A stretch of 62,585 nucleotides of DNA, counting the filler, from Jimgerdemannia flammicorona (taxonomy: Eukaryota): NCBI GenBank assembly GCA_003990765.1. It is 2 parts of 2 records of this genome, joined end to end, with 100 filler letters (N's around TTAATTAATTAA, not from the genome) between each part and the next. Parts side by side here need not be neighbours in the genome. Positions count along the whole stretch, not along the records: positions 1 to 31,259 come from RBNJ01000406.1; 1 more part is not named here. One strand, 5' to 3'. Below the pieces are notes generated by a model, which made no database searches, was not told where the DNA came from, and worked only from the letters and a program-made list of their open reading frames with translations. Of the stretch, positions 21,231 through 58,726 are shown piece after piece (the first letter of the stretch is position 1; every line of letters starts with the position of its first letter). Both the position numbers and the translations under genes were made by a program.

Positions 21231-24200
21231 CCAACTCTCCATGTAGCCCAAGACATACCAAGACAGCACCTTATTGGCAATAGCAAAAGGAAGAAGACAC
21301 TGCACTAAAACAGATACACTCCAGATGTAGTTAAAGGCACCAGAAACTATGAAAAAGTAGAGAAGACATCAATCTGACACTGATAAAGAGGCAACTCATC
21401 ACCATTGCCTTCTCTCTACTATCCTACAACAGATATAGCAAACTAACCTGAGATAGAGGGAGTAATAATTGTGGAAAGTGGACTTGGAAGATTGCCTACC
21501 AAACTATTGTGACTGGTAAGATAGCAGAGAAAGGTATTTAATTTAAGATATAAGTATAGTACTTCCACTAGTATAAGAACCTAAAGACAATATCTAGACT
21601 TTATTATAAAAGATAATTAAAACTTAGCACTTTCTCAAGAACTCAAAATATAGAGCTAAAAGTCATCTTTGACTCTCTGCAATATATTAATTCTATTGGT
21701 ATATAGTTTTATTATATAAAAGTTAGTAAAAAAAAAAATAATTAAAAAATAAAAAAAAAAAAAAAAACTTAATTATAATAATAATATATAATATTAATTT
21801 ATTAAAATATAATAAATATTTTTTTAATAAATATTTTTTATAATATATTTAACAGATATAATATTTTGAATTATATAGAATAATAATTTTATATTTTAAT
21901 TAAAGAAACTATTATTATATATTTAGTTATAAAATTATATTTTATATTAAATTTAAATATTTAAAAGAACTGCAAAATTATTTATAAAATAATATTATTC
22001 TCATTATTAAATTCTTAAAATAATAATATAATAAATAAATAATATTTTTTTTATTATCTGGCTCAATAATCTATATTAATTATCTATTAATTAATATTAA
22101 TTTTGATAGATACCATATATTATTTTATATTACTCTTTATATCTTTTTTTTATTTATTTTATAGTCAGTTAATAATGCAGTTCTATATGATCAAAATAAT
22201 AAAATAATAAGAAATATAAATCCTTGACTAGTACTAAGCTTATGATATATAGAGAGTATAAGTTAACAAAAATGTTAAATACTCATATTCTCTTAAAGAA
22301 GAGAATCAGATACTGGATAATATATATATATTTAGAATATTTTCAATTAACAACTAGTCTTCTAATAAATCCCTAAGCTTGCTACTGTTATATTTAGTAT
22401 ATTTACTCTAAACTTTTATAAATTCATTAGTTGATAATTAGTCCTTAGGTAAGACTACTATATAGTAGGTTAGAACTTACAATATAGAATAAGACAACTA
22501 TTTTATACTGTCAATCTTTACTATTATAACCTTATAAGCTTGTAGAGATTTTTTTACTCAATCTGTAAGTACTGTTATTTAGAGATAGAGATTTCTAAAT
22601 ATTTTCTGCCTATGCTAGAGATTCATATGTTTACTGCTCAACAATTTGTTATTTCTATTCTTAATAATTATATCTATCTATTAAAGCTTATCTATACAAA
22701 ACCTCATCACCTCAAACTGTCTCATTTTTGTCAATATCCAATTATCTTAATTTGATATTTATAATCTATTGGTGTATTATCATCTTCTTCTTTGAAATTT
22801 CTTTCTCTGCAGTCTATAGCAGTAGTATATCACACTATTATTATATATAGTATTTATATTTATATCAGAATCTATACATAACTGGAAATATTATAATCAT
22901 TATAGACCTTTTGCTGAGTAAACAAAATGGCTGCAATTTGCTTAAATAATCACAAATCCTCACATCAAACCAAAGAATTTATTCACTTCAATTTAATTGA
23001 TATATTATTTTACTTTTAATAAATTTTTATCTCATCTTTTATCACCTCCTTCCGAAACAAAACAAGCCCTGAGACTTCATAAAATTGATCAAAACTCCAC
23101 GCCAGCATTCAGGTCTTAGATGGCCTGACCTCCTTCATCACAGCTCCGAAATCACCTCCCTGCACAAGTATTGTTTTCCTTTTCACCTTCCCAAGTATGC
23201 TTTTCCCATATGAATACTTCTCCGACAAGCTTGCAAACTCAAACGACCCATTCAGAGCTGTAAACTCTTCACTCCAGAACCTCACTTCCTGCTCGCCATT
23301 TTGGCATACACCATCACGTACGCCTCCAACATGGCCCCCATCCCTGCGGTGCGACACCAACAGATACCCGTACGTCTCAGCGATCATCACAGTCAGTGCG
23401 TGCACATAGTGCACCAGCAACCACGTAATCCTAGCACCTGCCATTTAGAGTATCATATTTGCGTGTCAGAACAACGAGGCGAGTGGGATACGAAAGGTAC
23501 GTATATTGTATGGAGCCGCCACTCCGCCGTCAACCACTGCAAATTTGTCATAGTCATTACCTGACTCTCTCACCGCCGCCGCCACGTCGTCTGATGTTTG
23601 CAGAGCAGGAATTTTGTGTGCTTCGGAGCAGTTCAGCGTGATAGATGTGCATTCCCTGCGTCTTCATTCCTGACAAAAGGGCTGGTTGAGAAGGTCATTT
23701 CGACGTTCACGATATAATAGCTGATGGTCAGCTCATCGACATTGAGATAGACGATGACGATCACATTGTCCTTGATCTCAAAAATCAAATGAAGGTTGTT
23801 GCCGCATGAGATGCTTGTTTAGCTGACCGGTGCATAGCTCCTCACGTTCGTCGATTGCCAGCTCCGCCAACGCGTTGTGCTGACCATGCGGATGGAGGTG
23901 TGGCTAGGAAGGGGGGCTGGTGGCGATGGAGGAGGGGTTGAAGGGGAGAAAGGAGTCAGTTCAGAGGCAGAGATGGCAGAGAAAAGTCAAGGAGGCGGTG
24001 TCGGCCAGTGATGACGCGATATTCCGGGTCCAGTGCGAAGAAAACATCTGTCGAGTTATCGTATAGCCTCAAATATAGGAACACAGTCTTCACGCGATAT
24101 CTTAATCCCCTATTTTCTTTTCACCCTGCATCCATCTCCGTGGACACGATCAAGTCAACACACGCGCCCAACGATGACCCGTTGGGTTATTGCGCCTATG

Positions 24201-24811
24201 ACAAAACACGATCCTCGCTTACCTCGGTACGACGAGTTCTGACAGCCCACTCACTACCAAAACGGTCTCGTGTCGATACGAGGGCGCAAGCATGGCGAGA
24301 ACAATTGACCTTATCAGCAACAAGTGACAGATCGTGTAAGTACCCACCCCCCAACCCCGACGCCCTAGCATTCCATCAGCACCCGAGGTCGAGTCGTCAT
24401 CGTAATGCGCTTTGAACCACCGCTCTCGTAGGTAGGAGGCCGTGGCCACGTTTGTGCTGGGATAACTCGTGAGGATGAAGGAGATGAAGTCGTGACATTG
24501 CGGCAATGTGCAAGATAATGTTCTCGAAGACCTCCGGTGGGAAGTGGTTGATGGCGGAGGAGGCGGGGCGAGTGGGACGTACTTGAGAGTACAGACCAAA
24601 GATGGTGCCTGAGGTGAACAGGAAGGGTGTTTATCATGCAGTTGTCTTATATTGAGTGGGGGTTATGGATGATAGAAAGCAGTGTTTAAGATACCTTACA
24701 AAGCGTATATTGTTAGATCGATTATCGGATGCCCAGGGTTAGGGTTGGGAATAAAGTTTTATTAACCGACATTTGACCATTTGACACGTTGCTCTTAACA
24801 CTTAAACAAAC

Positions 24812-27800
24812 ATGCCAACACTGCTCACGACCCAGACTGCGCTGAATCTCATTGGTATATTTGAACAGAGTGAACTGTTGATTGTAGCTGTCTGACGAGT
24901 TCCAACTGACAATCTGTGCGTATTTGCCTCATCCATCTGTTCAACTTCAGATATTAACGCTGAGGGTGTACTCGCGCTGGCGGAGTCTCTGAAGCAGAAC
25001 ACCACCCTTACCCAGCTGGATCTCGAATGTATGTCGGAAATCAGTTGAATGTTGGTGAATCGATCTAGCTGACCTGTGCGTATTTGTATATACATTTTTC
25101 AGCAAATGGCATCGGCGATGAGGGTGCCCGTGTTCTGGCCGAATCTCTGAAGCAGAACACGACCCTTACCCAGCTGAATCTCGAAAGTATGTCGGAAGTC
25201 AGTGTATGACTGTTTGAATGTGGGTGATTCGATCCAGCTGACCTGTGCGTATTTGTGCATTTTTCAGGGAATAGCATCGGCGATGAGGGTGCCCGTGCTC
25301 TGGCCGAGTCTCTGAAGCAGAACACGACCCTTACTCAGTTGAATATCTCCTGTATGTCGGAAATCAGTATGTGACTATTTGAATGTTGGTGATTCGATCC
25401 AGCTGACCTCTGCGTATTCATTTAGATAACTTTATCGGCGCTGAGGGTGCCCGTGCTCTGGCCGAGCCTCTGAAGCATAACACGACCCTTACCCAGCTGA
25501 ATCTCAGATGTACGTAGGAAATCAGCGTGTGACTTTTGAATGTAGGTGATTCTATCCAGCTGACCGTGCGTATTTATGCATTTTTCAGCGAATAACATTA
25601 AAGATGAGGGTGCCCGTACTCTGGCCGAGTCTCTGAAGCAGAACACGACCCTTACCCAGTTGAATCTCTACAGTATGTCGGAAATCAATGTGTGACTGTT
25701 TGAATGTGGGTGATTCGATCCAGCTGACCTGTGTATTCATAGATAACAAAATCGGCGCTGAGGGTGCCCGTGCTCTGGCCGAGTCTCTGAAGCAGAACAC
25801 GTCCCTTACCCAGCTGAATCTCGAATGTATGTCGGAAATCAGTGTGTGGCTTTTTGAATGTGGGTGATTCGATCCAGCTGACCTATGCGTATTCATAGAT
25901 AACGAAATCGGCGCTGAGGGCGCCCGTGCTTTGGCCGAGTCTCTGAAGCAGAACGCGACCCTTACCCAGCTCAATCTCGAATGTATGTCGGAAATCAGTG
26001 TGGGACTGTTTGAATGTGGGTGATCCGATCCAGCTGACCTGTGCGTATTCATAGATAACGAAATCGGCGCTGAGGGTGCCCGTGCTTTGGCTGAGTCCCT
26101 GAAGCTGAACATGACCCTTACCCAGCTGAATCTCGAAAGTATGTCGGAGATCTGTGTGTGGCTGTTTGAATGTGGGTGATTCGATCCAGCTGACCTGTGC
26201 GTATTCATAGATAACGAAATTGGCGCTGAGGGTGCCCGTGCTCTGGCCGAGTCTCTGAAGAAGAACACGACCCTTACCCAGTTGAATCTGGAATGTATGT
26301 CGGAAATCAGTGTGTGGCTGTTAGAATGTCGGTGATTCGATCCAGCTGACCTGTGCGTATTCATAGATAACGAAATCGGCGCTGAGGGTGGCCGTGCTCT
26401 GGCCGAGTCTCTGCAACAGAATACGACCCTTACCCAGCTGAATCTCGGAGGTATGTCAGTAATCAGTGTGTGGCAGTTTGGATGTCAATGATTCCATCCA
26501 GCTAACCTGTGCGTATGATAGATAACCAAATCAACGCTGAGGGCGCCCGTGCTCTGGCCGAGTCTCTAAAGCAGAACACGACCCTTACTCAACTGAATCT
26601 CCGAGGTATGTCGGAAATCAGTGTGTAACTGTTTGAATGTGGGTGATTCAATCCAGCCAACCTATTGCGTATTCATAGATAACGAAATTGGCGCTGAGGG
26701 TGCCCGTGTTCTGGCCGAGTCTATGAAGCAGAACACGACCCTTACCCAGCTGAATCTCGGAGGTATGTCGGAAATCAGTGTGTGACTGGTTGAATGTGGA
26801 TGATTTGGTCCAGCTGACCTGTGCATGTTTGTTCACCTATTCTCTGTTCATCTTTAGAAGTCGACATCGACGATGAGATGATAAATGCCATAAATATGGC
26901 TCTGAAGCGGAATGAGACATTACTTAAATCTAACATCAATGGTATGTCAAAATTATGAAACAGTTGCCAATAGTTTGAGCCACAGATTTTATATTTGTTA
27001 AAATTTGTTTTCAAGGTTGGTTGTATGTACTGCTATCTTATAAAATTAAGCTAAACATTTTTAATTCTGAACCTTTTCAATCTTCTGGGTGCATACCTAT
27101 AAAGTTGGGCAAACCAGCCAGGAATTAGCTGCAGTACGCCAGAGGTTGAAACAACAGCTCGAACGAAATCTGAAAAAAGACCGCACTGACAAACCAGATG
27201 CAGCCAGGACTCACTGGTTCGCCCACCGATATATTCCTAAACGTCCTCTGCCTGCTATAGACGATGACAACGCGACAGGTAGCAACAATCAACAGCGGAA
27301 GGTCGGCCTAACTTCAACAAATATCTCGGAATCCACAAAACTCGCATATAGCAGCATCATTATGGAAGAATCAGAACCACAGATTCAATCCAATGAAGCT
27401 GAGCCACATGTCTGGATTGTCAATGCCTTGACCACAGAGACCATTCATGAAATACCCTATGAAGATCTTGTAAAAGTTGGTATAATTGGCCGTGGTAACT
27501 ATGGAACAGTATACAGAGCTAGTTGGAAAGGACATGAATCACCATTTGTTGCTGTTAAGGATTTTTTGGATTTGAGCGACATGGTTCATGAAGTTCAAGT
27601 TTTTATAACATTGGGAGAGCATGATCACATTATCCGATTTTATGGTATTACAAAGTAAGTCATCTTATTGTCATTTTAGAATTAGGTATATTGTTGATAT
27701 TGACGATTAACATTTTAATTATTCTTTATAGGAACCCTGAAACAAAGCAATACGAAATTATTCTGGAGTATGCAGAGAGGGGAAATATGCATGACTTTTG

Positions 27801-29976
27801 GGATGTAAAAAAAAACATTTCGTTACCATGGCCAACAAGAATAAAAATGGCATATGGTTTGGCATGTGGATTACAGCATATGCATGCCAAAGGAATTGTA
27901 CATCGAGGTATTTACATTTTTCCATTTATGCTCTGAATGTATAGAGTAGTTCTTGTTCCCTTATATGTTAGTGACAAAATATTATATTTTATTAGGGTTG
28001 GATTGCGAGAATGTTCTAGTCCGCAAAGATGGCTCAGTGGCACTGACAGGCTTCAGTCTGAGCGGACTCACCTGCTCAACGACAAACGCTCGCATCCGGG
28101 AACAGCTGGACTATTATGATGGAGTGCAAGTAGATTTCGAGAAGAGCGATATTTACAGCCTTGGAATTCTGTTGTGGGAGATTCTACATGAGAAGCGTGC
28201 ATTTGAGGATAACTACAATCCAGACCTCCTCGATAATATCATGGACGGCCTCCGACCAGGAATGGACACAGAGACTGTATTACCGATGAAAAATGTCCCG
28301 CTTGATTACATTCGGCTCTATGAGGTATGTTGGGATACCGACATACTTGTTTGGCCTCCCATAGATACCGTGGTGTCCAGGTTGCGAGACCTGAAGTCCG
28401 CCGAAGATGATCGTGACTTCAACTGGGAACTATTGGAGAGCGTCTGGCTAGGCCTAGAAGACCAAAGAAAAATAGGTTCGTGCGTTGAATTTATTACATT
28501 ATTTAATTTCTGCAGTTGGTTCACGTAGGTTATTCAATAAATCTTTTGCAACATATGACAGGAATTGATATCAACAAGGAGCTGGAGCAATTGGGGTTAG
28601 ACATTATTGCTTTTGAAAATCTGTTCTTTACTCAAAAGAATGCTTGCAGGGGTGGGTTTGCAGATATCCATATGGGTGTTTTGAGCATCAAAAAAGATAT
28701 AAAAGTAGAAGTAGCTGTCAAATCGCAACTGAAGCATGCAGCAGATATAATACAAGAAGTGCGAATTCTAAAGATGGTGACAGGTCATCCGAATATTGTC
28801 CGATTCTATGGTATTACAAGGTATGTCTTGATGAATTTCAAATCATTAAAATTCTAATTTTGGAAATATGAAAAATATTTGTGATATGCTCATATAATTC
28901 GCTTTCTATTTCTTTATAGAGATGTCACCTTGAACTATATTGTCATGCACAGGGCCCAATCGTGTCTTCAGAAATATATTCATTACAACAAGGCGTTTAT
29001 TAGTATGCCTTGGGCTGAAAAGGTCAAGATCGCGTTGGATATTGCACAAGGGTTGCAATTCCTTCACCAACACCATATAATTCATTGCGACATGCATAGT
29101 GGCAACATTCTTATAGACGATGTAAGCACATCTCGAATTCCTTATATTTACATTGGCTGAGGACGTATGCTCATTGTCAATTATATTTTTGTATAGGATG
29201 GGTCGGCTCTTCTCACGGACTTTGGGCTGAGCCGAACTTTCGAGGAGGCGCAACGCCCAGAATTCCGAATCAAGATCTACGGCCGACTTGCATACATCGC
29301 TCCTGAACTCTGGAAGAAGCCACCCCCGCCATACAACTACTTGCACGACATTTTTGGCTTTGGTGTCTTGTGTTGGGAGATTGCGTCGTCCGAATTTCCT
29401 GGCAGCAATGAGAGAGCAGTTAACCCTAACCGTTTGAAGCCCCTGCCACTGTGTCCCAGCCCTGAATATCAAAATTTGTACCGATGTTGTGGATCAGCGC
29501 AGCCGAAGGAGCGACCTGAGATGGAAGAGATCGTCAGCATCCTAAAATCGGTACACGAGCAACTCCTCCTGCACTCTGCTCATGGCGTCTCTGTGGCCCC
29601 AGTGGACATTCCGCGCATCACAGAGAATACGATTCCAGACAGTATGCGCCAGAATTTGGATGGTCTAGTTGATATATCTTCATTAGTGTTGGGACCTTTG
29701 ACAAGGGAGGCTACAATTCTGGAAGATGCACGACAGAATTCCAACAGACGAGTTGAGATGTTTTTGTCAACATCAGTGGCCGGTCACAAGCCGTCTGTCC
29801 AACTGCGTGATCAATTCGTCTCTTCGAGAGTAGCAACCGAACGACGCTCAACAGAGGAGGATATGTTGCCTGGTACGATGCAGCAAAATTTGAACATTCC
29901 ATCTGCATCAGAGTCATTAGCAGGGAATGCTCATCCTTCCGAATATAGGAAAAAGGTAGTATATCAGAGAAAATGA
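24812..29976 (+). CDS. LRR-pseudokinase-kinase protein (13 RNI-like LRR exons plus tandem TKL-type kinase domains), 20 exons, about 1191 aa
   Basis: Manual GT-AG model stays in frame: 24812-24854, 24951-25028, 25103-25186, 25268-25351, 25426-25509, 25589-25672, 25743-25826, 25899-25982, 26055-26138, 26211-26294, 26367-26450, 26522-26605, 26679-26762, 26858-26941, 27105-27654, 27732-27907, 27996-28475, 28562-28820, 28920-29121, 29197-29976. LRR consensus xNxIGAEGARALAESLKQNTTLTQLNLx. Kinase 1: GRGNYG, VAVK, HRGLDCEN, TGFS. Kinase 2: VAVK, HCDMHSGN, DFG, APE. The LRR-to-kinase junction (26941 to 27105) is the least certain. Confidence 0.85.
24951..26941 (+). repeat. Tandem array of about 156-bp exon+intron units (84-nt LRR exon plus about 72-nt intron)
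   Basis: Eleven 84-nt exons plus a 78-nt first exon and a divergent 84-nt last exon. Introns share GTATGTCGGAAATCAGTGTG...GAATGTGGGTGATTCGATCCAGCTGACCTGTGCGTATT. Confidence 0.95.
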
Positions 29977-31149: not shown

Positions 31150-31860
31150 ACTCATAGTCTTGTGGATTTTTATTGGAAGAGATCGTAGACTATATAGGCC
31201 AAATCCCTCCCCCACCACCTATCATATATTTTCCTCTCTTTTTTTTTGTTTTTTTTTTTNNNNNNNNNNNNNNNNNNNNNNNNNNNNNNNNNNNNNNNNN
31301 NNNTTAATTAATTAANNNNNNNNNNNNNNNNNNNNNNNNNNNNNNNNNNNNNNNNNNNNCTCCTTCCCTGCCAATCTAATCCTGACATCCACATCGCCTG
31401 TCCTGATAGTCGTCCCCTCCCATATCTGAAAGCCAATGTCCACTATGTCCCCATACTCAGCCATCACCTCCTCTATCCTCCTCCTCGTCTCCTCCTTAGT
31501 CACCGTGGGCACCCCCCTTACCAGAAGCTGCACCACCCTGGGGTCCCACCTCAAGCACCTCACCATGGGGACTGCCACCTCCCCAACCACCACTCCCGCC
31601 TTCAAGGCCTCATCCAGCAGGCCTGCCTCCTCAAATCCCACCTCAACCCCCTCTAGGCCCTTCAAGAACTTCACCGAAGCTGCCCCAGCCATCTGCCTCA
31701 AGATCAGCCCCAGGACCATCTTCGCCGTCACTGCCAAGCCTCGGAAGCACAAGGTGGCCGCGAACTCCGAGATCGACTTCTTGAGCAACGGGGCCACCGC
31801 CAGCCCCGTGACACCATCAGCCAGGTCTCCCTTCCGCATCGGGACCCCCTGCCCCCCCAT
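31109..31860 (-). mobile_element. Young LINE element broken by an assembly gap: poly(A) 3' end (31109-31220) and ORF1 fragment (31360-31860)
   Basis: Poly-T and the shared LINE 3' terminus lie left of the gap. Right of the gap is an uninterrupted GC-rich ORF (VVQLLVRGVPTVTKEETRRRIEEVMAEYGDIVDIGFQIWEGTTIRTGDVDVRIRL) resembling the RRM-like region of LINE ORF1. Confidence 0.65.
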
Positions 31861-38772: not shown

Positions 38773-41700
38773 GATATTTCTTGAGTCGGTTTTGATAAAT
38801 GGTGGTGGGGATTATTGTGCCTGAGGGTTTTCATAGCCAAAAGGTGGTTCCTTTTATATCTTGCACAAGGTAAGGTCCTTCCCACTTGGGCTCTAGTTTT
38901 CGTGACCATGAAGCTTCGATCATATTCCAATACACCAGGACTTTGTCTCCTATCTTGATAATCTCCAGGGGTTTGTGGGTCTTTTCCGCATTCCTCCATT
39001 GTAGTGTCTGTGCCTTCGTTATGTAATTCTCAGTCTTCTTCCTGATTTAGTGTAGTCTCCATATTTCCATGTCTATATGTTTTCATATAGCATCTCCATT
39101 GGATGACAAGGTTCCCTGAGAACATTCTTCTCTGAACAGCATTTCTCAAGGGATAAAGTGGATACTTTGTGATTGGATATCCCGGAGAGTAGATAATGCT
39201 ATTGGTAGATAGTAATCCCAGTTCTCATAGCTATTGCAGATCTTGGCAATAACATTCTTGAGAGTTTTGTTGGTTCTTTCTACTTGTCTGTTTTCTTGAG
39301 GGTGATATGCTGTAGTCTGAATATGCTGGATCTTATACTTCTTGTAGAGAACTTCGAAGAACTGGTTCACGAATTCAGTTCCTCTATCTGTAGTTACTTG
39401 TGTTGGGGTCTTGAACTGGCAGATGATTTCTTTGTGGAAGAAATCGGCGATTAACTATGCATTGGCTTCCATAAGAGGTCCCACTTCTATCCATTTTGTA
39501 AAGAGGTCTACAATAATGATGATGTATCAGTTGCCAGTCAAAGTCAAGGGTAGGGAGCTGATTATATCCATTGCAATGTGGGCAAATGGTACTGGTTCTA
39601 TGTGTGCTGATCCTGGGGCTTGATTTTGTTGATCTTGTTTCTGTTTCTGGCATTTGTCGCAGGTCTTGACGAATTGTCTGATATCTTCCTCCATCTCTGG
39701 CCACCATATTGTTCTTCTTGCCTTGTCGTATGTATTTGTTCCTCCTAGATGGCCAAGTTCATATACTGATTTCATTGCTTACTCCTTTTTGTGTTCTGGT
39801 ATGACTAGTAGTTTTCCTTTCTTCAGTATTTCTCCATCAGTTTCGAATTGTTTCCATGTTCTGTTGATAATCATTTGTGTCCATTCTTCCAGATGTTGGA
39901 GCATCTTTCGCTGTCCCAGGTATATGATAATTCCATAGTAGAGCTCCTTATTCATGGCGATTTTGTGAGGGTGGGGTCCTTTGGGGTATCTGTGAGAGGG
40001 CATCTGTATTGGCATTGGTTCTTCCAGAATGATGTACGATGGTTACATCATAAGCTTGCAACTTCATTATCTATCTGGTATAGATTCCTTTGGGTTGTCC
40101 AGTTGTCAGTAACCAGGTGAGAGCTGAGTGGTCTGTTTGGATGGTGAAGTGTCTTCTGGCCAAGTAGTAGTAGAACTTTTCTACAGCCCAGATGACTGCG
40201 AGGCATTCTAACTTGTAGGATTCGTATTCTTTTTCAGCTCCTTGGGTTCCATGGCTGAGGTATGTGATGACATACTCCACTTTGTCTTTCTTTTGAGCTA
40301 GGACTGCTCCTAGTCCTTGTGTGCTTGCATTGGTCTGTAGGATGAATTCTTGAGTCCAGTCAGGTTTTCTGAGGATGGGTGCCTGGGTCAGTCTGACCTT
40401 GAGTTCATCAAATGCTTTTTGTTGTCTGCCAGTCCACTGGAACTTGGTATCCTTCTTGTTAAGTTTGTAGATTGGTCCCACAATATTAGAAAATCCTCTA
40501 ATAAATCTGCGATAATAGGAGGTGAGTCCCATGAAGGCTTGGGCTTCCGTAACAGTAGTGGGTCTTGGGTATGTGACCACTGCTTGTATCTTGAGGGGGT
40601 CCATGTGTGTTCCATCTCAGTTGATGATATGGCTGAGATAGGAGATCTCGATTTCTGCAAACTTGCACTTCTTGGATTTGATGTAAAGGCCATGTTGTCT
40701 TAGTCTTTCCATTATCTGCTGTATGTGCTGCAGATGTTCCTCAGGTGTCTTGCTGTAGATAATTACATCATCGACATAGACCATCATCCATCTTCCCATA
40801 TTATAGTGGAAGATTTTATTTATCATTCGCTGGAAACTTGCTGGTGTATTGCACATTTCAAATGGCATTTATAGGTAGACGTAGGTTCCGTCTGGAGTGA
40901 TGAAAGCTGACTTTTCACTTGCCATGTCTGTGAGTCCGATTTGGTGGAATCCCAAGTATAAGTCCAAGGTGCTGTAGTACTGTGCTTCATCTCCCAGTGT
41001 TATAAGGATGTCATTGATGAGGGGCAGTGGTTGGCGATCCTTCTTGGTAACCATGTTGAGTTTTCTGTAGTCAATATAGAGTCTTGGGGCGAATTCTCCA
41101 GGCTTGCTTCCTTTTTTCGGGGCTAGTACAACAGGTGAGGACCAGGGGCTGCTTGCTTCTTTAATGATGCCAGCTTCTTCCATCTGCTTGATTTCTTCTC
41201 TGAGCCATTCTCGGTAGGCTGGTAGGACAGGTCTTGCTTTCTGATAAATTGGTTCGGTATCTCCAGTATCTACTTCATGATAGTAGTGTGGGGTCTTTCC
41301 TTTGATATTCTTGAAATCTGTGGCAAGAACATCTTTGAATTCATGGAGTATTTTCTTGAGTTCTTTCTTGAGTGGAAATTTGTTTCTGATGATATAACTG
41401 TGCTTACTTGTGTTTTTCTCCTTCTTATACTTGAGTTCAGTGATCTTGATATTGGCGAATACTTCTCTTCCTATAGATCCAAATTCTTTCTTTCCTCTTC
41501 TTGTGTCCTCCAGCTTCTTGACTTCTATGATCTTTGGTTGTAGGATCAGAAAGATCAACATTTGCACCAATCGGTTCTTCTTCTTGACTGGAAATGGGAT
41601 TGTAGGATTGTGATTCCTAGCAATGAGTAGAATTTCTCCAATATAGTCTGAATCAATGACTCCTCCTTCGATTGTAATTTCACTTCTAGCCAGACTGCTT

Positions 41701-43355
41701 GTCTTGAGAATCCCGACATGGTCCTTTGGGATGGTCATCTTCAATCCAGTTGTAAGTAGGGTGGTTGTCTGGGGTTCCAGTACAGTCTCTTCTACTATAA
41801 TGATGTCCATTCCGGCTGCATTTTCTGACTTATATTCTGGCAAGACTGCATCAGGGTGAATCTTTCGAATCTTGACCTTGATATCTTCTTCATCATCACT
41901 GTCCTCCAGGAGGGCTGGTGGTTCATCATCTTCCTCCTTCTTTTCTTCCTTAATCTGTTTTTTGAGAGCTTTCTGTCTTCTTTCCTGGTGGATCTTCCTG
42001 ATTCCAATGGTGCACTGGTAGCAATCATTAACATGCTCCATGCTGTACATTTTGATCCCATGAGGACAGACTTCTTGTGGTGCATAGCCTTCTGCCATCT
42101 TCTTGCATTATTCTTCTTCACTCATCCATTTGACTTTCTTCTTCTTTGGAATAGTCACTATATAAGCTTCCTCTTGCTCGCTCTCTTCTTCCTCCATGTC
42201 GGGCAAGACTCCTTTGTTGACATTGATGAGAATTTATATCTTCTGTTCCTGGTAAGTGATCTGCATCTTCTGGGCATTGTAATCAATTACTGTCTTGGCT
42301 TTGTGAAGCCACTAATTGCTGATGAGAATGTTATAGTTGGTGGCATTAGTTATGATTATATCTACTGAGATGATTGCTCCTCCAATCTTGATGAAAACAT
42401 CTCGGATCTTTCCCAGAGGTGTGGCTCTTGTACCATCAGCTATGATGAACACCAGCTTTGTTGCTTCTTCTACATCCCAACCTAGGCGGTCTGCTGCCTT
42501 CTTGCTGAGGAGGCATCCTCCTGCTCCTGTATCAATGATGGCCTCAAAGATTCTATCTTTGATTTGGCATATTGCATATGCAGAGGTTTTGTGATTATCC
42601 TCACTTTCTTCTCCTAAGTCCTCTTGAGCATTATTGGCCTTGGTTATCTTCCATCCCTGTTCCTTAGTTGTTTCAGCAAGTCCAAACCTCATTTGCTATC
42701 TGAATGTTGGGATTTCTGCAAGCTGACCAAAGGTTGCATTAACCTTTTGTTGGCTGAGGTCCTTGAAGATATCATACTTAAAGGTTTTGGTCTTGCGAAG
42801 CTTCTTCTCTTTTTCTCCTTCACTGGCTAGAGTGGTTCCTCAGATGATATCTTGAACTGCTTGCTCCAGCTCTGTATCTTAGTCCATCTCTTCGACTTGA
42901 CTTTCTGTGGCAGTTTCCATCTGCTTTTCTACTGAATTCTTTTTGGGTCTTTCTGGTGATCTCTTGTAGTGTTCTTTGCAAGCATCCTTCTTGGTGGTCT
43001 GAGCAGGATAGGCCTCCCATTCTTCTTCATCAGAATCTCTGATCTCCTCGAAGGTAATTATATTGGCCTGCTCCTTGTTTCGTGTAGCATTACTTGGTTG
43101 AGCCTTGTGCTTGGTTTTACTTATGCATTCATAGGAGTAGTGGCCTTCTTCTCCACAAGTATAGCAGGTACCTTTCTTCTTGTCTGAGGTGGCAGCGAAC
43201 TTCTGAACAGAGCAGCGGTCTCTTCCTCAAATTTCCTTTGCCATGTCTCCCAGGTGGGCAGTCATTTCAGCAAACCTTTTGGTGAGTTCCTCCATAGGGT
43301 CACTGTTCTTTTGCTGCTCTATAGCTTTTGGCTGGGGTGTGTTCCGATTGATCAT

Positions 43356-57469: not shown

Positions 57470-58726
57470 ATGGTCACTGACGACGACGAGTCCACCAACC
57501 GCCAGCTCCAAGAGGATGAGTGTCTGGCCCTGGCTTCCATCTTCGGCGACTCAGCTTTCGTGCCGGACACGACTCACCCACACGCTCACGTCCTGACGCT
57601 GGACCTGGACGAGACACAGGACGCGCCGCGGTCGCCGCGGACGCTCCACGTGCGGTTTCACTTTCCGCCAACCTACCCGTCGCGTGATCCACCCGTGCAC
57701 GAAATCACTTCCGTGTACTGCGGCACAATGCGGGTGACGGACGAGATGAGGCGCGCGGTCGACGCTGGGTTCCGTGAGCGGTTCGTACTGGGCGAGGTCA
57801 TTGTGTTCGAGTGGGCAGGGTGGTTACGCGAGTACCTTGAGGAGAGGTTCGCAGAGGAGGCTCATGCGAATGCGGATAGGCTTGGCGACGACGTGGCGGA
57901 ACATGAGGTGGATGAAAATGTGGAGGAGGCAGATAAGGAGGTTAGCCTGCTTTCGACGCAGGAAACCGCAGAGTTGACGAGTGGGCAAGGGGAGGACGCG
58001 GCAGCGCCGCCCATCGCTCATGGAGAGCCGTTGGTCGATCGGAGGTCGATATTCGTAGCGCATGCGGCGCCTGTGGCGAGCCTGGCAGAGGTGCAGGTGG
58101 GTCCTTATGTGGGAGCTCGAGCTGGGGACGATTGAAACGTATGCGACATCATCCTCAACCTTTGTTTGACGTAGGCTGTGATACGTGTGCTTTATGACAA
58201 CAAGCGGATCGCACGAGCGACGCACAACATCCGCGCGTACCGGATCGTGCAGTCGGACGGGCGGGTGTTACAGGATAACGATGATGATGGGGAAACGGCG
58301 GCAGGGAGTGGGTTTTTAAAACATTTCCTTTTCAACATAGTTCGATTTTTTGTGTGCATATGGGTCATTCGTGGCTTTGATCTGTCCGGATTTACCTAGG
58401 CCGGCTCCTGCACCTGATGCAAATCCTCGATGTCAAGAATGTGCTGGTGGTCGTGACGCGGTGGTATGGCGGTAAGTAATCGCGTTGTCCTTCCCCAGAT
58501 TCCGGCGGTTTGATTGCTCTCATATTCGTACGCTCATAGATCTACGTCAATCCCACACTCTTCGCGGGTCTCAGGCATCCAATTAGGCGCGGATCGGTTT
58601 AAGCACATCAACAATGTCGCGCGACAGGTGCTAGAGGAGAATGGCTACTTGGCAGAGGAGGGTGGAAAGAAGAGCGTAGTGGGAAAGAAAGGAGAGACGA
58701 CCAAGAACAAGAAGGGGAAGAGGTAA
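57470..58726 (+). CDS. YIH1: IMPACT/Yih1 (RWD domain plus UPF0029 domain; Gcn2 inhibitor family), 4 exons
   Basis: Exons 57470-58096, 58175-58307, 58400-58471, 58575-58726. RWD motifs QEDECLALASIFG and FPPTYPS; UPF0029 motifs DRRSIFVAH, ATHNIRAYRI, DDDGETAAG, VVVTRWYGGIQLGADRFKHINN. Confidence 0.95.

What the first reader, a model, noticed from the sequence alone, without database searches (positions are those of the whole stretch)
24812..26941. One-LRR-per-exon cassette array with co-duplicated introns and variation concentrated at the splice junctions
Seen: 13 LRR exons, all phase 1-1 and a multiple of 3 long (84 nt; the first is 78 nt), each in a roughly 156-bp unit whose intron is about as conserved as the exon. 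The scaffold (EGARALAESLKQNTTLTQLNL) is nearly invariant, while the residues around the junction in LxLxxNxI vary: ES-N-G, ER-N-S, SY-N-F, RS-N-N, YN-N-K, EY-N-E, EY-N-E, EN-N-E, EY-N-E, GD-N-Q, RD-N-E. One variable codon is split by the intron, so joining different exons can create a new residue. Known: these x positions form the exposed surface of LRR solenoids, and exon-per-repeat shuffling is described for brown algal ROCO LRR genes. Inference: this is a diversifying recognition module in a fungus, in which any exon can be skipped, duplicated or exchanged in frame.
Basis: partly seen in the sequence, partly recalled or inferred. Interest (0 to 1): 0.88.

Follow-up and report, generated by a model that had tools for sequence, protein, structure and literature searches.

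The report
One-repeat-per-exon LRR array, fungal kinase gene
A probable soil-fungus gene for a leucine-rich-repeat sensor fused to two kinase domains builds its sensor from about a dozen recently copied exon-plus-intron units that differ mainly at three surface residues beside each splice site, a design already known from animal NOD/NLRC genes, brown algae and ciliates.

Summary
Window 24951-26941 holds 13 exons (78 nt, then 12 of 84 nt), all phase 1-1 with GT-AG borders, each encoding one 28-residue ribonuclease-inhibitor/NLR-type LRR. Twelve form a 156-bp exon+intron tandem array. Introns are as conserved as exons (86.7% against 84.0% mean pairwise identity). Differences cluster in the three codons beside the junction: 35 of 105 cells depart from consensus, against 48 of 790 in intron cores and 40 of 768 in the exon scaffold.

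The array is the N-terminus of an inferred 20-exon, 1202-residue gene: LRR, kinase-like domain lacking catalytic aspartates, then an intact non-RD kinase. Nearest named relatives are Mucoromycota (Jimgerdemannia, Endogone, Mortierella).

Unit trees are star-like and substitutions run towards AT, so I read a recent burst of cassette duplication, with faster or preserved change at a loop just after the beta-strand.

Three independent environmental contigs share the 84-nt phase-1 exon design, and three read-through ORFs show homologous introns. The design is therefore a family trait.

Exon skipping and isolate polymorphism could not be tested. Frame-preserving LRR exon arrays are published for human NOD/NLRC genes, brown-algal ROCO genes and Tetrahymena. 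This is a new member of a known kind.

The parts
24812..24854 (+). Exon 0. It carries the ATG and a truncated LRR unit (43 nt, ends in phase 1). The following 96-nt intron is homologous to the array introns.
   Evidence: Local alignment of 24841-24924 to a unit. In-frame stop 9 nt upstream of the ATG. Gene model.
24951..25028 (+). LRR exon 1 (78 nt, phase 1-1). It lacks the two codons 'N x'.
   Evidence: LRR_6 E = 0.018.
25103..26762 (+). LRR exons 2-12, each 84 nt and phase 1-1, with the ten introns between them (70-81 nt). This is the core of the 156-bp tandem array.
   Evidence: Each of the 11 exon peptides hits Pfam LRR_6 at E = 3.5e-5 to 0.003.
26763..26857 (+). Intron 12 (95 nt). Its first ~66 nt are unit-like; its tail is unique and AT-richer. 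It marks the 3' edge of the GC-rich amplified block.
26858..26941 (+). Exon 13 (84 nt, phase 1-1). A divergent, AT-richer last LRR-like repeat (30% identity to the others in protein; no Pfam hit).
27105..28475 (+). Exons 14-16: linker and first kinase-like domain. The glycine loop and VAVK lysine are kept; HRG stands in place of HRD and TGF in place of DFG. Predicted pseudokinase.
   Evidence: PK_Tyr_Ser-Thr hits. Sequence and model. Motif names are recalled knowledge.
28529..29976 (+). Exons 17-19: second kinase domain (VAVK, HCD, DFG, so a non-RD type) and a C-terminal tail. Stop codon at 29974-29976.
   Evidence: PK_Tyr_Ser-Thr hits..
23050..24811 (.). GC-rich (~50%) block without a recognisable ORF, directly upstream and compositionally continuous with the array. 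Its role is unknown.

Best explanation
The region is the N-terminal sensor domain of a cytoplasmic LRR / pseudokinase / kinase gene (inferred model: 20 exons, 24812-29976, 1202 residues) of a probable Mucoromycota (Endogonales-like) fungus.

The domain is written as one 28-residue RI/NLR-type LRR per 84-nt phase-1 exon. That exon design is inherited within the gene family. In this gene a 156-bp exon+intron unit was amplified recently, in a burst, by tandem duplication (unequal recombination), probably with some later inter-unit gene conversion. This is why the introns are as alike as the exons and are still much GC-richer than the gene's other introns.

After or during that burst, the three residues flanking the conserved Asn changed, or were kept different, about 6-8 times more than neutral-proxy sites. 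These are LRR motif positions 7, 8 and 10, and position 8 is the codon split by the intron. They sit in the loop directly after the beta-strand, on the rim of the concave face, so the most likely reading is selection for different ligand-contact residues in successive repeats.

Shown: the anatomy, the LRR class, the clustering of variation, the star-like history and the family-wide exon design. Inferred: the gene model (no RNA evidence), the selection, the recognition function, and signalling through the second, intact kinase.
For: Anatomy and splice signals.

LRR class: 12 of 13 exon peptides hit Pfam LRR_6. The exon's first 12 residues match profile positions 13-24 and its last 11 match positions 1-11. 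A profile of the 13 peptides finds an RI-like protein, DRC5, NOD2 and tropomodulin among solved structures. An AlphaFold model of the close relative P0005 has pLDDT 83-98 over residues 50-160. It places the strand on LTQLN and the junction-equivalent residues in the loop before the helix. It superposes on the NOD2 LRR (5irl, rmsd 1.6 A over 112 columns, 46% identity), NLRP1, NLRX1 and RI.

Burst: trees of scaffold, intron core or both have 0 well-supported inner branches of 9. Changes from consensus run strong-to-weak 24:9 in the scaffold and 23:16 in the intron core. This implies an equilibrium GC of 0.35-0.37, below the present values. Array introns have GC 0.38-0.49, against 0.22-0.34 for the six other introns.

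Selection: scaffold dN/dS is 0.26. Junction-codon dN is 0.98, against scaffold dS 0.25 and intron distance 0.13. Departures from consensus are 35/105 against 48/790 and 40/768. There is no correlation between a unit's neutral-proxy divergence and its junction divergence (rho = -0.21).

Family trait: in three independent metagenome loci (L001, L004, L005; L003 repeats L001), 13 of 15 LRR exon candidates have AG and GT at the same 84-nt borders. The read-through ORFs P0003, P0006 and P0202, and locus L005, show homologous intron sequence.

Taxon: the nearest named hits are Jimgerdemannia flammicorona, Endogone sp. and Mortierella spp..
Against: - No transcript evidence: the gene model and every splice site are inferred.
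- Within the three junction codons alone, dN/dS is only 1.73 on very few synonymous sites.
- The acceptor-proximal intron columns are as variable as the junction codons (diversity 0.51). They come in two forms linked to the exon start: 'TTCATAG|AT AAC ... GCT' against 'TTTTTCAG|NN AAT ... GAT'. Part of the variation is therefore block-inherited and the units are mosaics, which fits conversion as well as selection.
- Units 6-9 show 1, 0, 1 and 0 junction departures.
- The classical concave x positions (T, Q, N of LTQLNL) are invariant here, although they vary in relatives.
- Introns are more conserved than scaffold synonymous sites (0.13 against 0.25), which I cannot explain.
- The GC-rich block extends 1.8 kb upstream into non-repeated DNA, so composition alone does not prove a young array.
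Confidence: 0.62

Rival explanations
1. Concerted evolution without diversifying selection. The repeats are old and each keeps its own junction residues under ordinary purifying selection. Gene conversion and unequal crossing-over keep homogenising the scaffold and most of the intron, so the array only looks young.
For: Shared variants are mutually incompatible, for example units 7+11, 3+11 and 7+8 (columns). There are two linked acceptor/exon-start haplotypes. A unit's neutral-proxy divergence and its junction divergence are uncorrelated. Homologous introns in L005, P0003 and P0202 show the unit predates this array.
Against: Exon columns 81-84 are hypervariable yet sit between about 20 invariant exon columns and about 20 near-invariant intron columns, so conversion tracts would have to skip 4 nt. 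The AT-ward substitution spectrum and the GC excess of the introns argue for youth. Units 6-9 share the same junction residues.
Confidence: 0.22
2. The array is an active diversity generator: cassettes are skipped by alternative splicing, or exchanged and duplicated between alleles and paralogues, so that one locus yields many receptors and new junction residues arise from new joins.
For: All 15 consecutive exons 0-14 are phase 1, and 85 of 91 non-adjacent joins stay open. Joins could create residues absent from the constitutive form: A, G, W, F, T, K, I. P0003 has a unit with the rare 'NF ... EPLK' features of window unit 4, followed by a different unit than in the window. Alternative splicing of such arrays is documented for NLRP3 and brown-algal ROCO genes.
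Against: There is no RNA or population evidence at all. Donors, branch sites and acceptors are near-identical and strong in every unit, which gives no hint of regulated skipping. Six joins give a stop. No inverted or intronic dead cassettes like those in Ectocarpus were found.
Confidence: 0.12
3. The coding strand is the other one. An intron-less protein of 52-residue repeats is read from the 259-codon minus-strand ORF at 25585-26364.
For: The ORF is open across five units.
Against: It has no Pfam family above noise. It is open only in the five most similar units. The unit is 52 codons long, so any frame free of stops in one unit is open across near-identical copies. The + strand gives a canonical LRR with 13 GT-AG introns and branch motifs.
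Confidence: 0.01
4. Assembly artefact. The array, or the join between the GC-rich block (23050-26830) and the AT-rich kinase part, is a collapsed, expanded or chimeric assembly.
For: There is a sharp composition change at both edges. The central units are 90-93% identical.
Against: All 12 units are distinct in sequence. The array contains no N. Reading frame, phase and LRR register continue across the 3' edge into exon 13 and the kinase exons. Exon 0 is a truncated unit, as expected at a real array border.
Confidence: 0.03

Closest known systems
Human NOD/NLRC genes: one 28-residue RI-type LRR per exon, frame-preserving (Hoss et al. 2019, PMC6642158; section 6 and passages read)
   Same: The LRR class is the same (RI type, 28 residues). 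There is one repeat per exon, all exons preserve the frame, and the exon border falls at the same place in every repeat, at or after the beta-strand. The predicted fold of a close relative superposes best on the NOD2 LRR.
   Different: There is no NACHT domain: the LRRs are N-terminal to two kinase domains. Here the introns are short (70-95 nt) and co-amplified, so the units are near-identical. I could not test whether the intron sits at the homologous codon and phase in animals, because no passage I read gives it.
Brown-algal LRR-ROCO genes (Zambounis et al. 2012, PMC3341825, passages; Teng et al. 2024, PMC11378527, abstract and section 11)
   Same: There is one LRR per exon in tandem, with a codon split at each junction and excess change at exposed positions. 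They are proposed to be fast-evolving receptors.
   Different: The algal exons are 72 nt and encode a 24-residue LRR of another class, joined to ROC-COR rather than to kinases. Dead and inverted intronic cassettes and documented splice variants are reported there. None were seen or testable here.
Tetrahymena 90-bp-exon LRR genes (Xiong et al. 2019, PMC6564038; passages read)
   Same: Both have tandem arrays of equal-length LRR exons with one uniform intron phase, a 'junction' amino acid made by two exons, and clonal waves of exon+intron unit expansion.
   Different: The Tetrahymena exons are 90 nt with phase 2 introns, in a ciliate, with thousands of genes and an associated retrotransposon. 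Only one array was seen in this window.
LRR_6 + TKL kinase proteins of Mucoromycota and Capsaspora (e.g. P0100 'TKL/IRAK protein kinase' of Capsaspora owczarzaki; P0074, P0079, P0083). LRR+kinase genes of Mucoromycota are noted in PMC10507103 (passages read).
   Same: The domain combination is the same: RI-type LRRs with a Tyr/Ser-Thr-type kinase, with no NACHT.
   Different: The kinase part here is only 23-35% identical to those fetched. It is a tandem of pseudokinase plus kinase. The exon structure of those relatives could not be examined.

Membership tests
RI/NLR-type LRR (Pfam LRR_6, PF13516) | Repeat length of 28-29 residues with consensus LxxLxLxxNxLxxxGxxxLxxxLxxxxx | tested here: met
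   All 12 array repeats are 28 residues. 12 of 13 exon peptides hit LRR_6 at E = 3.5e-5 to 0.018, split over the two halves of the profile. The profile finds an RI-like protein, NOD2 and tropomodulin among solved structures.
RI/NLR-type LRR (Pfam LRR_6, PF13516) | Strand-loop-helix solenoid fold | tested here: inconclusive
   This was tested only on the relative P0005 (66-85% identical repeats), because the spliced window protein could not be submitted. The model has strand/helix alternation with period 28 and matches the NOD2, NLRP1, NLRX1 and RI LRRs.
Frame-preserving exon-per-LRR cassette genes (NOD/NLRC type) | One LRR per exon, exon length a multiple of 3, same phase on both sides, border at the same repeat position | tested here: met
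   13 of 13 exons. The same holds in 13 of 15 exon candidates of L001, L004 and L005.
Frame-preserving exon-per-LRR cassette genes (NOD/NLRC type) | Intron at the homologous codon and phase as in animal NOD/NLRC genes (common descent of the exon module) | not testable with these tools
   No eukaryote gene structures are on hand. The papers I read give no phase or position.
Frame-preserving exon-per-LRR cassette genes (NOD/NLRC type) | Alternative splicing of LRR exons | not testable with these tools
NLR (NACHT or NB-ARC plus repeats) | A central NACHT or NB-ARC NTPase domain | tested here: not met
   Pfam scans of the gene's large exons and ORFs and of the upstream ORFs give only LRR_6 and kinase families.
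ROCO / LRRK | ROC GTPase and COR domains between the LRR and the kinase | tested here: not met
   The 110-residue linker exon (ORF 27089-27658) hits only kinase families.
Brown-algal type exon shuffling | Dead or inverted LRR cassettes inside introns or nearby | tested here: not met
   BLAST of the unit against both strands of the window finds only the 12 co-oriented units.
TKL-type LRR kinases | LRR domain plus a PK_Tyr_Ser-Thr (PF07714) catalytic domain with Lys, HxD and DFG | tested here: met
   PF07714 hits occur in five ORF pieces. The second domain keeps VAVK, HCD and DFG; the first has HRG and TGF. Subfamily placement (IRAK-like or other) was not tested.
Plant-type LRR receptor kinases | Signal peptide, extracellular 24-residue plant-specific LRRs and a transmembrane helix | tested here: not met
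   The repeats are 28-residue RI type. No hydrophobic N-terminus or membrane span is evident in the model by eye; no predictor was run.

The most novel reading that the evidence does not exclude
Endogonales-like fungi may carry a family of cytoplasmic receptors in which an RI/NLR-type LRR sensor is written as interchangeable 84-nt phase-1 cassettes and coupled to a pseudokinase plus non-RD kinase pair. Cassette duplication and exchange, and perhaps exon skipping, with hypervariable junction residues would tune recognition of partners or microbes.

This would be a fungal counterpart of animal NOD/NLRC sensors and IRAK-type signalling. The 84-nt exon module could even be homologous to the animal NOD/NLRC LRR exon, that is, an ancient opisthokont building block.
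Probability: 0.13. Interest if true: 0.75.

Novelty: new member of a known kind. Interest (0 to 1): 0.45.

Why it matters
Fungal NLR-like receptors are generally described as using ankyrin, WD40, TPR or HEAT repeats rather than LRRs (passages of PMC12258605). In eight literature searches I found no description of exon-per-LRR cassette arrays in fungi (one search concerned NLR genes generally).

A Mucoromycota gene family built this way would add a fourth lineage, after animals, brown algae and ciliates, in which LRR sensors are written as frame-preserving cassettes. It would also offer a compact locus for testing repeat birth, gene conversion and selection at contact residues. The locus has 156-bp units whose introns serve as a built-in neutral yardstick.

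It also bears on how mycorrhiza-forming early-diverging fungi might sense partners or endobacteria. As it stands, this is a well-documented example of a known design, not a new mechanism.

Tried and rejected
- **Whole genome:** none is held for this window, so paralogous arrays in the same genome could not be counted.
- **Sequencing runs:** two runs (X1, X2; shares 0.24 and 0.17; kind guessed, no RNA holder listed) were returned. There is therefore no read evidence of any kind.
- **Metagenome scans:** an exact scan with an intron pattern found 0 loci. A back-translated peptide pattern found 5 loci.
- **Rows dropped:** I dropped seven rows. Four in L001 (starts 586, 964, 1560, 2522) and two in L002 (189, 796) were 9-23-nt BLAST seeds without an LRR translation. 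L002 1767 is an LRR inside a longer exon, without splice sites at these borders, so the design is not universal.
- **Structured RNA in the introns:** Rfam gave 0 matches at E up to 1 over 22900-27200. Five introns fold no better than shuffles (z = -0.55 to +1.10).
- **Minus-strand ORF:** rejected.
- **Upstream GC-rich block:** no Pfam, Rfam or similarity hit.
- **Cluster look-up:** gave no organism names for the unnamed relatives.
- **Earlier findings of this scan:** nothing relevant.
- **Literature:** I found no statement of intron phase or position for NOD/NLRC LRR exons. Supplements were not consulted, and Hoss et al. Fig. 1h with its supplementary figure may hold this.
- **Exhaustive protein search:** 9094 proteins at E up to 0.001, 1734 at up to 1e-10 and 81 at up to 1e-30. 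Almost all of the 150 listed match only the exon-coded residues ~19-46 of the query. This shows how common the LRR class is and adds only P0202 and P0150 as cassette-like records.
Full report
**1. What is in the sequence**

Between 24951 and 26941 on the + strand there are 13 short exons. The first is 78 nt and the other twelve are 84 nt. Each is preceded by AG and followed by GTATGT (GTACGT once).

Joined, one frame is open throughout and every exon begins and ends in phase 1. The 12 introns between them are 70-95 nt long. They have a CAGCTGAC-type branch motif 15-25 nt before a YAG acceptor.

Tandem Repeats Finder reports one array, 25111-26824, with period 156, 10.9 copies and 85% matches. 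A BLAST of one unit finds 12 co-oriented copies and nothing else on either strand of the 62.6-kb window.

The 43-nt exon carrying the ATG (24812-24854) and its intron are a truncated copy of the unit. The 13th exon is a divergent repeat: 30% protein identity to the others, no Pfam hit, and GC 0.37 against about 0.54.

**2. What the repeats are**

Twelve of the 13 exon peptides hit Pfam LRR_6 (PF13516). The first 12 residues of each exon match the second half of the 24-position profile and the last 11 match the first half. The intron therefore cuts each LRR just after LxLx.

A profile of the 13 peptides finds a ribonuclease-inhibitor-like protein, DRC5, rabbit NOD2, tropomodulin and LRRC34 among solved structures.

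I could not submit the spliced window protein to the fold tools, so I modelled the close relative P0005.
- In the confident part of the model (pLDDT 83-98 over residues 50-160) the strand lies on LTQLN.
- The residues equivalent to the variable ones lie in the loop between that strand and the following helix, on either side of the conserved Asn.
- The model superposes best on the NOD2 LRR (5irl, 1.6 A over 112 columns, 46% identity), and also on NLRP1, NLRX1, RI and tropomodulin.

That this loop and the strand form the ligand-facing side of LRR solenoids is established knowledge that I recall. I did not test it here.

**3. The gene**

Continuing in phase from exon 13, I could build a complete model of 20 exons and 19 GT-AG introns. 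It runs 24812-29976 and encodes 1202 residues with a single terminal stop.
- After about 375 residues of LRR and a linker of about 110 residues come two PK_Tyr_Ser-Thr domains.
- The first keeps the glycine loop and VAVK lysine but reads HRG and TGF where HRD and DFG are expected. It looks like a pseudokinase.
- The second reads VAVK, HCD and DFG, so it is intact and of the non-RD kind.
- Both domains have a phase-2 intron after YGIT(K/R), so the kinase pair is itself an old tandem duplication.
- No NACHT, NB-ARC or ROC-COR domain was found.

The model rests on sequence alone, because no RNA evidence could be obtained.

**4. How the variation is distributed**

Mean pairwise identity among the 12 units is 84.0% for exons and 86.7% for introns.

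| Site class | Diversity per column | Departures from consensus |
|---|---|---|
| 9 columns of the three junction codons | 0.525 | 35/105 |
| Exon columns 17-80 (scaffold) | 0.100 | 40/768 |
| Intron columns 1-68 (core) | 0.114 | 48/790 |
| Last aligned intron columns before the acceptor | 0.513 | not counted |

- Junction against intron core gives an odds ratio of 7.7 (p = 4.5e-14).
- Scaffold against intron core is not significant (p = 0.51).
- By Nei-Gojobori counting the scaffold has pS 0.21 and pN 0.06 (dN/dS 0.26), so the repeats have been under purifying selection.
- The three junction codons have pN 0.55 (dN 0.98). Their own dS rests on very few sites (dN/dS 1.73).
- The intron distance is 0.13.
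- Only positions 1 (the split codon), 3 and 28 of the repeat vary appreciably here. In relatives (P0002, P0004, P0009, P0013, P0100 and others) the strand positions 23, 24 and 26 vary as well.

**5. History of the array**

Several results point to a recent burst from one master unit.
- Trees from the scaffold, from the intron core and from both together are star-like. None of the 9 inner branches is well supported, and terminal branches are 0.02-0.11.
- Changes away from the consensus are mostly G/C to A/T: 24 against 9 in the scaffold and 23 against 16 in the intron core. This implies an equilibrium GC of 0.35-0.37, below the present composition.
- The array introns have GC 0.38-0.49, while the gene's other six introns have 0.22-0.34.

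The units are nevertheless mosaics.
- The acceptor region comes in two forms that are linked to AAC or AAT for the Asn and to Ala or Asp three codons later.
- Several shared variants are mutually incompatible.
- Some gene conversion or recombination among units is therefore likely.

A unit's junction divergence does not track its neutral-proxy divergence (rho = -0.21). Units 6-9 are almost unchanged at the junction.

**6. Relatives**

- *Kinase part:* the kinase ORF finds only an Endogone sp. protein, at 35% identity.
- *Close LRR relatives:* a window ORF that reads from intron through exon 6 into the next intron finds a Jimgerdemannia flammicorona MYND+LRR protein, an ankyrin+LRR fragment and a cysteine-type-LRR+LRR protein.
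- *Read-through ORFs:* the same search finds two short ORFs, P0003 and P0006. Their sequence continues into the translated intron, so they are read-through calls on homologous genomic cassettes. The exhaustive search adds P0202, which covers two units with a homologous intron. It also adds P0150, a distant GC-rich protein in which LRRs alternate with a repeated intron-like segment.
- *Metagenome loci:* a back-translated peptide pattern found five loci. L001 (L003 repeats it), L004 and L005 each hold tandem units with periods of 147-162.
  - In these, 13 of 15 LRR exon candidates are 84 nt with AG and GT at the same borders.
  - One of them carries a stop codon.
  - One L005 candidate lacks the AG. 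Another ends the reading frame.
  - Their introns cannot be aligned to the window's, except in L005.
  - L002 has a related LRR without these introns.
- *Wider family:* the LRR class is very common. 670 proteins reach E of 1e-10 or better among 5521 candidates. They include animal NACHT-LRR proteins, many Mortierellaceae proteins and several LRR_6+kinase proteins, among them a Capsaspora 'TKL/IRAK' kinase.

The exon-per-repeat design is thus a trait of this gene family. The cassette array is found attached to different partner domains.

**7. Interpretation**

The best reading is a recently amplified cassette array forming the sensor end of a cytoplasmic LRR / pseudokinase / kinase protein. The three loop residues beside each splice junction changed, or were kept different, far more than neutral yardsticks allow.

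I put 0.62 on this overall. Within it, the selection step is the weakest part.

The main rival (0.22) is concerted evolution of old, individually constrained repeats.

All of exons 0-14 are phase 1, and 85 of 91 non-adjacent joins stay open while 6 make TAA. It has no direct support, and the uniformly strong splice signals do not suggest regulated skipping.

A minus-strand 259-codon ORF across five units is an expected by-product of a 52-codon unit and has no family. Misassembly is unlikely, since all units differ and frame, phase and repeat register run on into the kinase exons.

**8. Comparison with the literature**

- Hoss et al. 2019 (PMC6642158; section 6 read) report that most human NOD and NLRC genes encode one 28-residue RI-type LRR per exon. 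The border is always at the same place in the beta-sheet, the exons are strictly frame-preserving, and LRR exons are alternatively spliced in NLRP3.
- Zambounis et al. 2012 (PMC3341825; passages) and Teng et al. 2024 (PMC11378527; abstract and section 11) describe 72-nt one-LRR exons in brown-algal ROCO genes. They report exon shuffling, positive selection at concave positions and splice variants.
- Xiong et al. 2019 (PMC6564038; passages) describe tens of thousands of 90-bp LRR exons with phase-2 introns and a 'junction' amino acid in Tetrahymena.
- LRR and kinase genes of Mucoromycota are mentioned as donors of genes to endobacteria (PMC10507103; passages).

My searches found no paper describing such arrays in fungi.

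I therefore file this as a new member of a known kind. I could not test whether the fungal intron position is homologous to the animal one.

**9. Unexplained**

- A 1.8-kb GC-rich block without a recognisable ORF lies directly upstream.
- The array introns are more conserved than scaffold synonymous sites.
- The strand-face residues are completely invariant.

Noticed in passing
window 27105-29976: The gene's C-terminal half is a tandem of two kinase domains. The first has HRG for HRD and TGF for DFG (pseudokinase-like). The second is intact but non-RD (HCD). Both have a phase-2 intron after YGIT(K/R), so the pair arose by duplication. The order, pseudokinase before kinase, recalls JAK kinases (recalled, not tested).
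   Followed up: partly
window 23050-24811: A 1.8-kb block at about 50% GC lies between 13-25% GC flanks, directly upstream of the gene's ATG. It has no ORF with a Pfam hit, no Rfam hit and no similarity to the rest of the window or to the fetched loci.
   Followed up: partly
window 40071-42098 (minus strand): ORFs with dUTPase, reverse transcriptase and RNase H domains: a retrotransposon carrying a dUTPase.
   Followed up: no
window 57470-58135: An ORF with an RWD domain (E = 1.7e-11) lies in the GC-rich (47-58%) right-hand part of the window.
   Followed up: no
window 31260-31303 and 31316-31359: Two runs of 44 N, probably masked or gap stretches, about 1.3 kb downstream of the gene.
   Followed up: no
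window 25585-26364 (minus strand): A 259-codon ORF is open across five array units. It is explained by the unit being 52 codons long, and it has no family.
   Followed up: yes
L005 211-457: In the closest environmental relative, one intron is 247 nt instead of about 75 nt. It ends in two tandem 29-nt copies of the branch-site/acceptor region (400-457), that is, two candidate acceptors in a row. The last LRR exon there (794-877) ends in a stop codon, so that array is C-terminal.
   Followed up: no
L001 1659-1742; L003: One cassette of the L001 array carries an in-frame stop (pseudogene or sequencing error). L003 is the same array on a second contig of the same assembly, in reverse orientation.
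   Followed up: no
P0150 (543 aa): A distant, GC-rich environmental protein alternates RI-type LRRs with a repeated segment of about 24-28 residues that looks like translated intron. The same exon+intron cassette amplification probably occurs in another lineage.
   Followed up: no
P0003 against window units 4-5: P0003's first repeat shares the rare 'NF' and 'EPLK' features of window unit 4. It is followed by an 'NE' type unit instead of the window's 'NN-IKD' unit, which is a hint of differing unit order between related arrays.
   Followed up: partly
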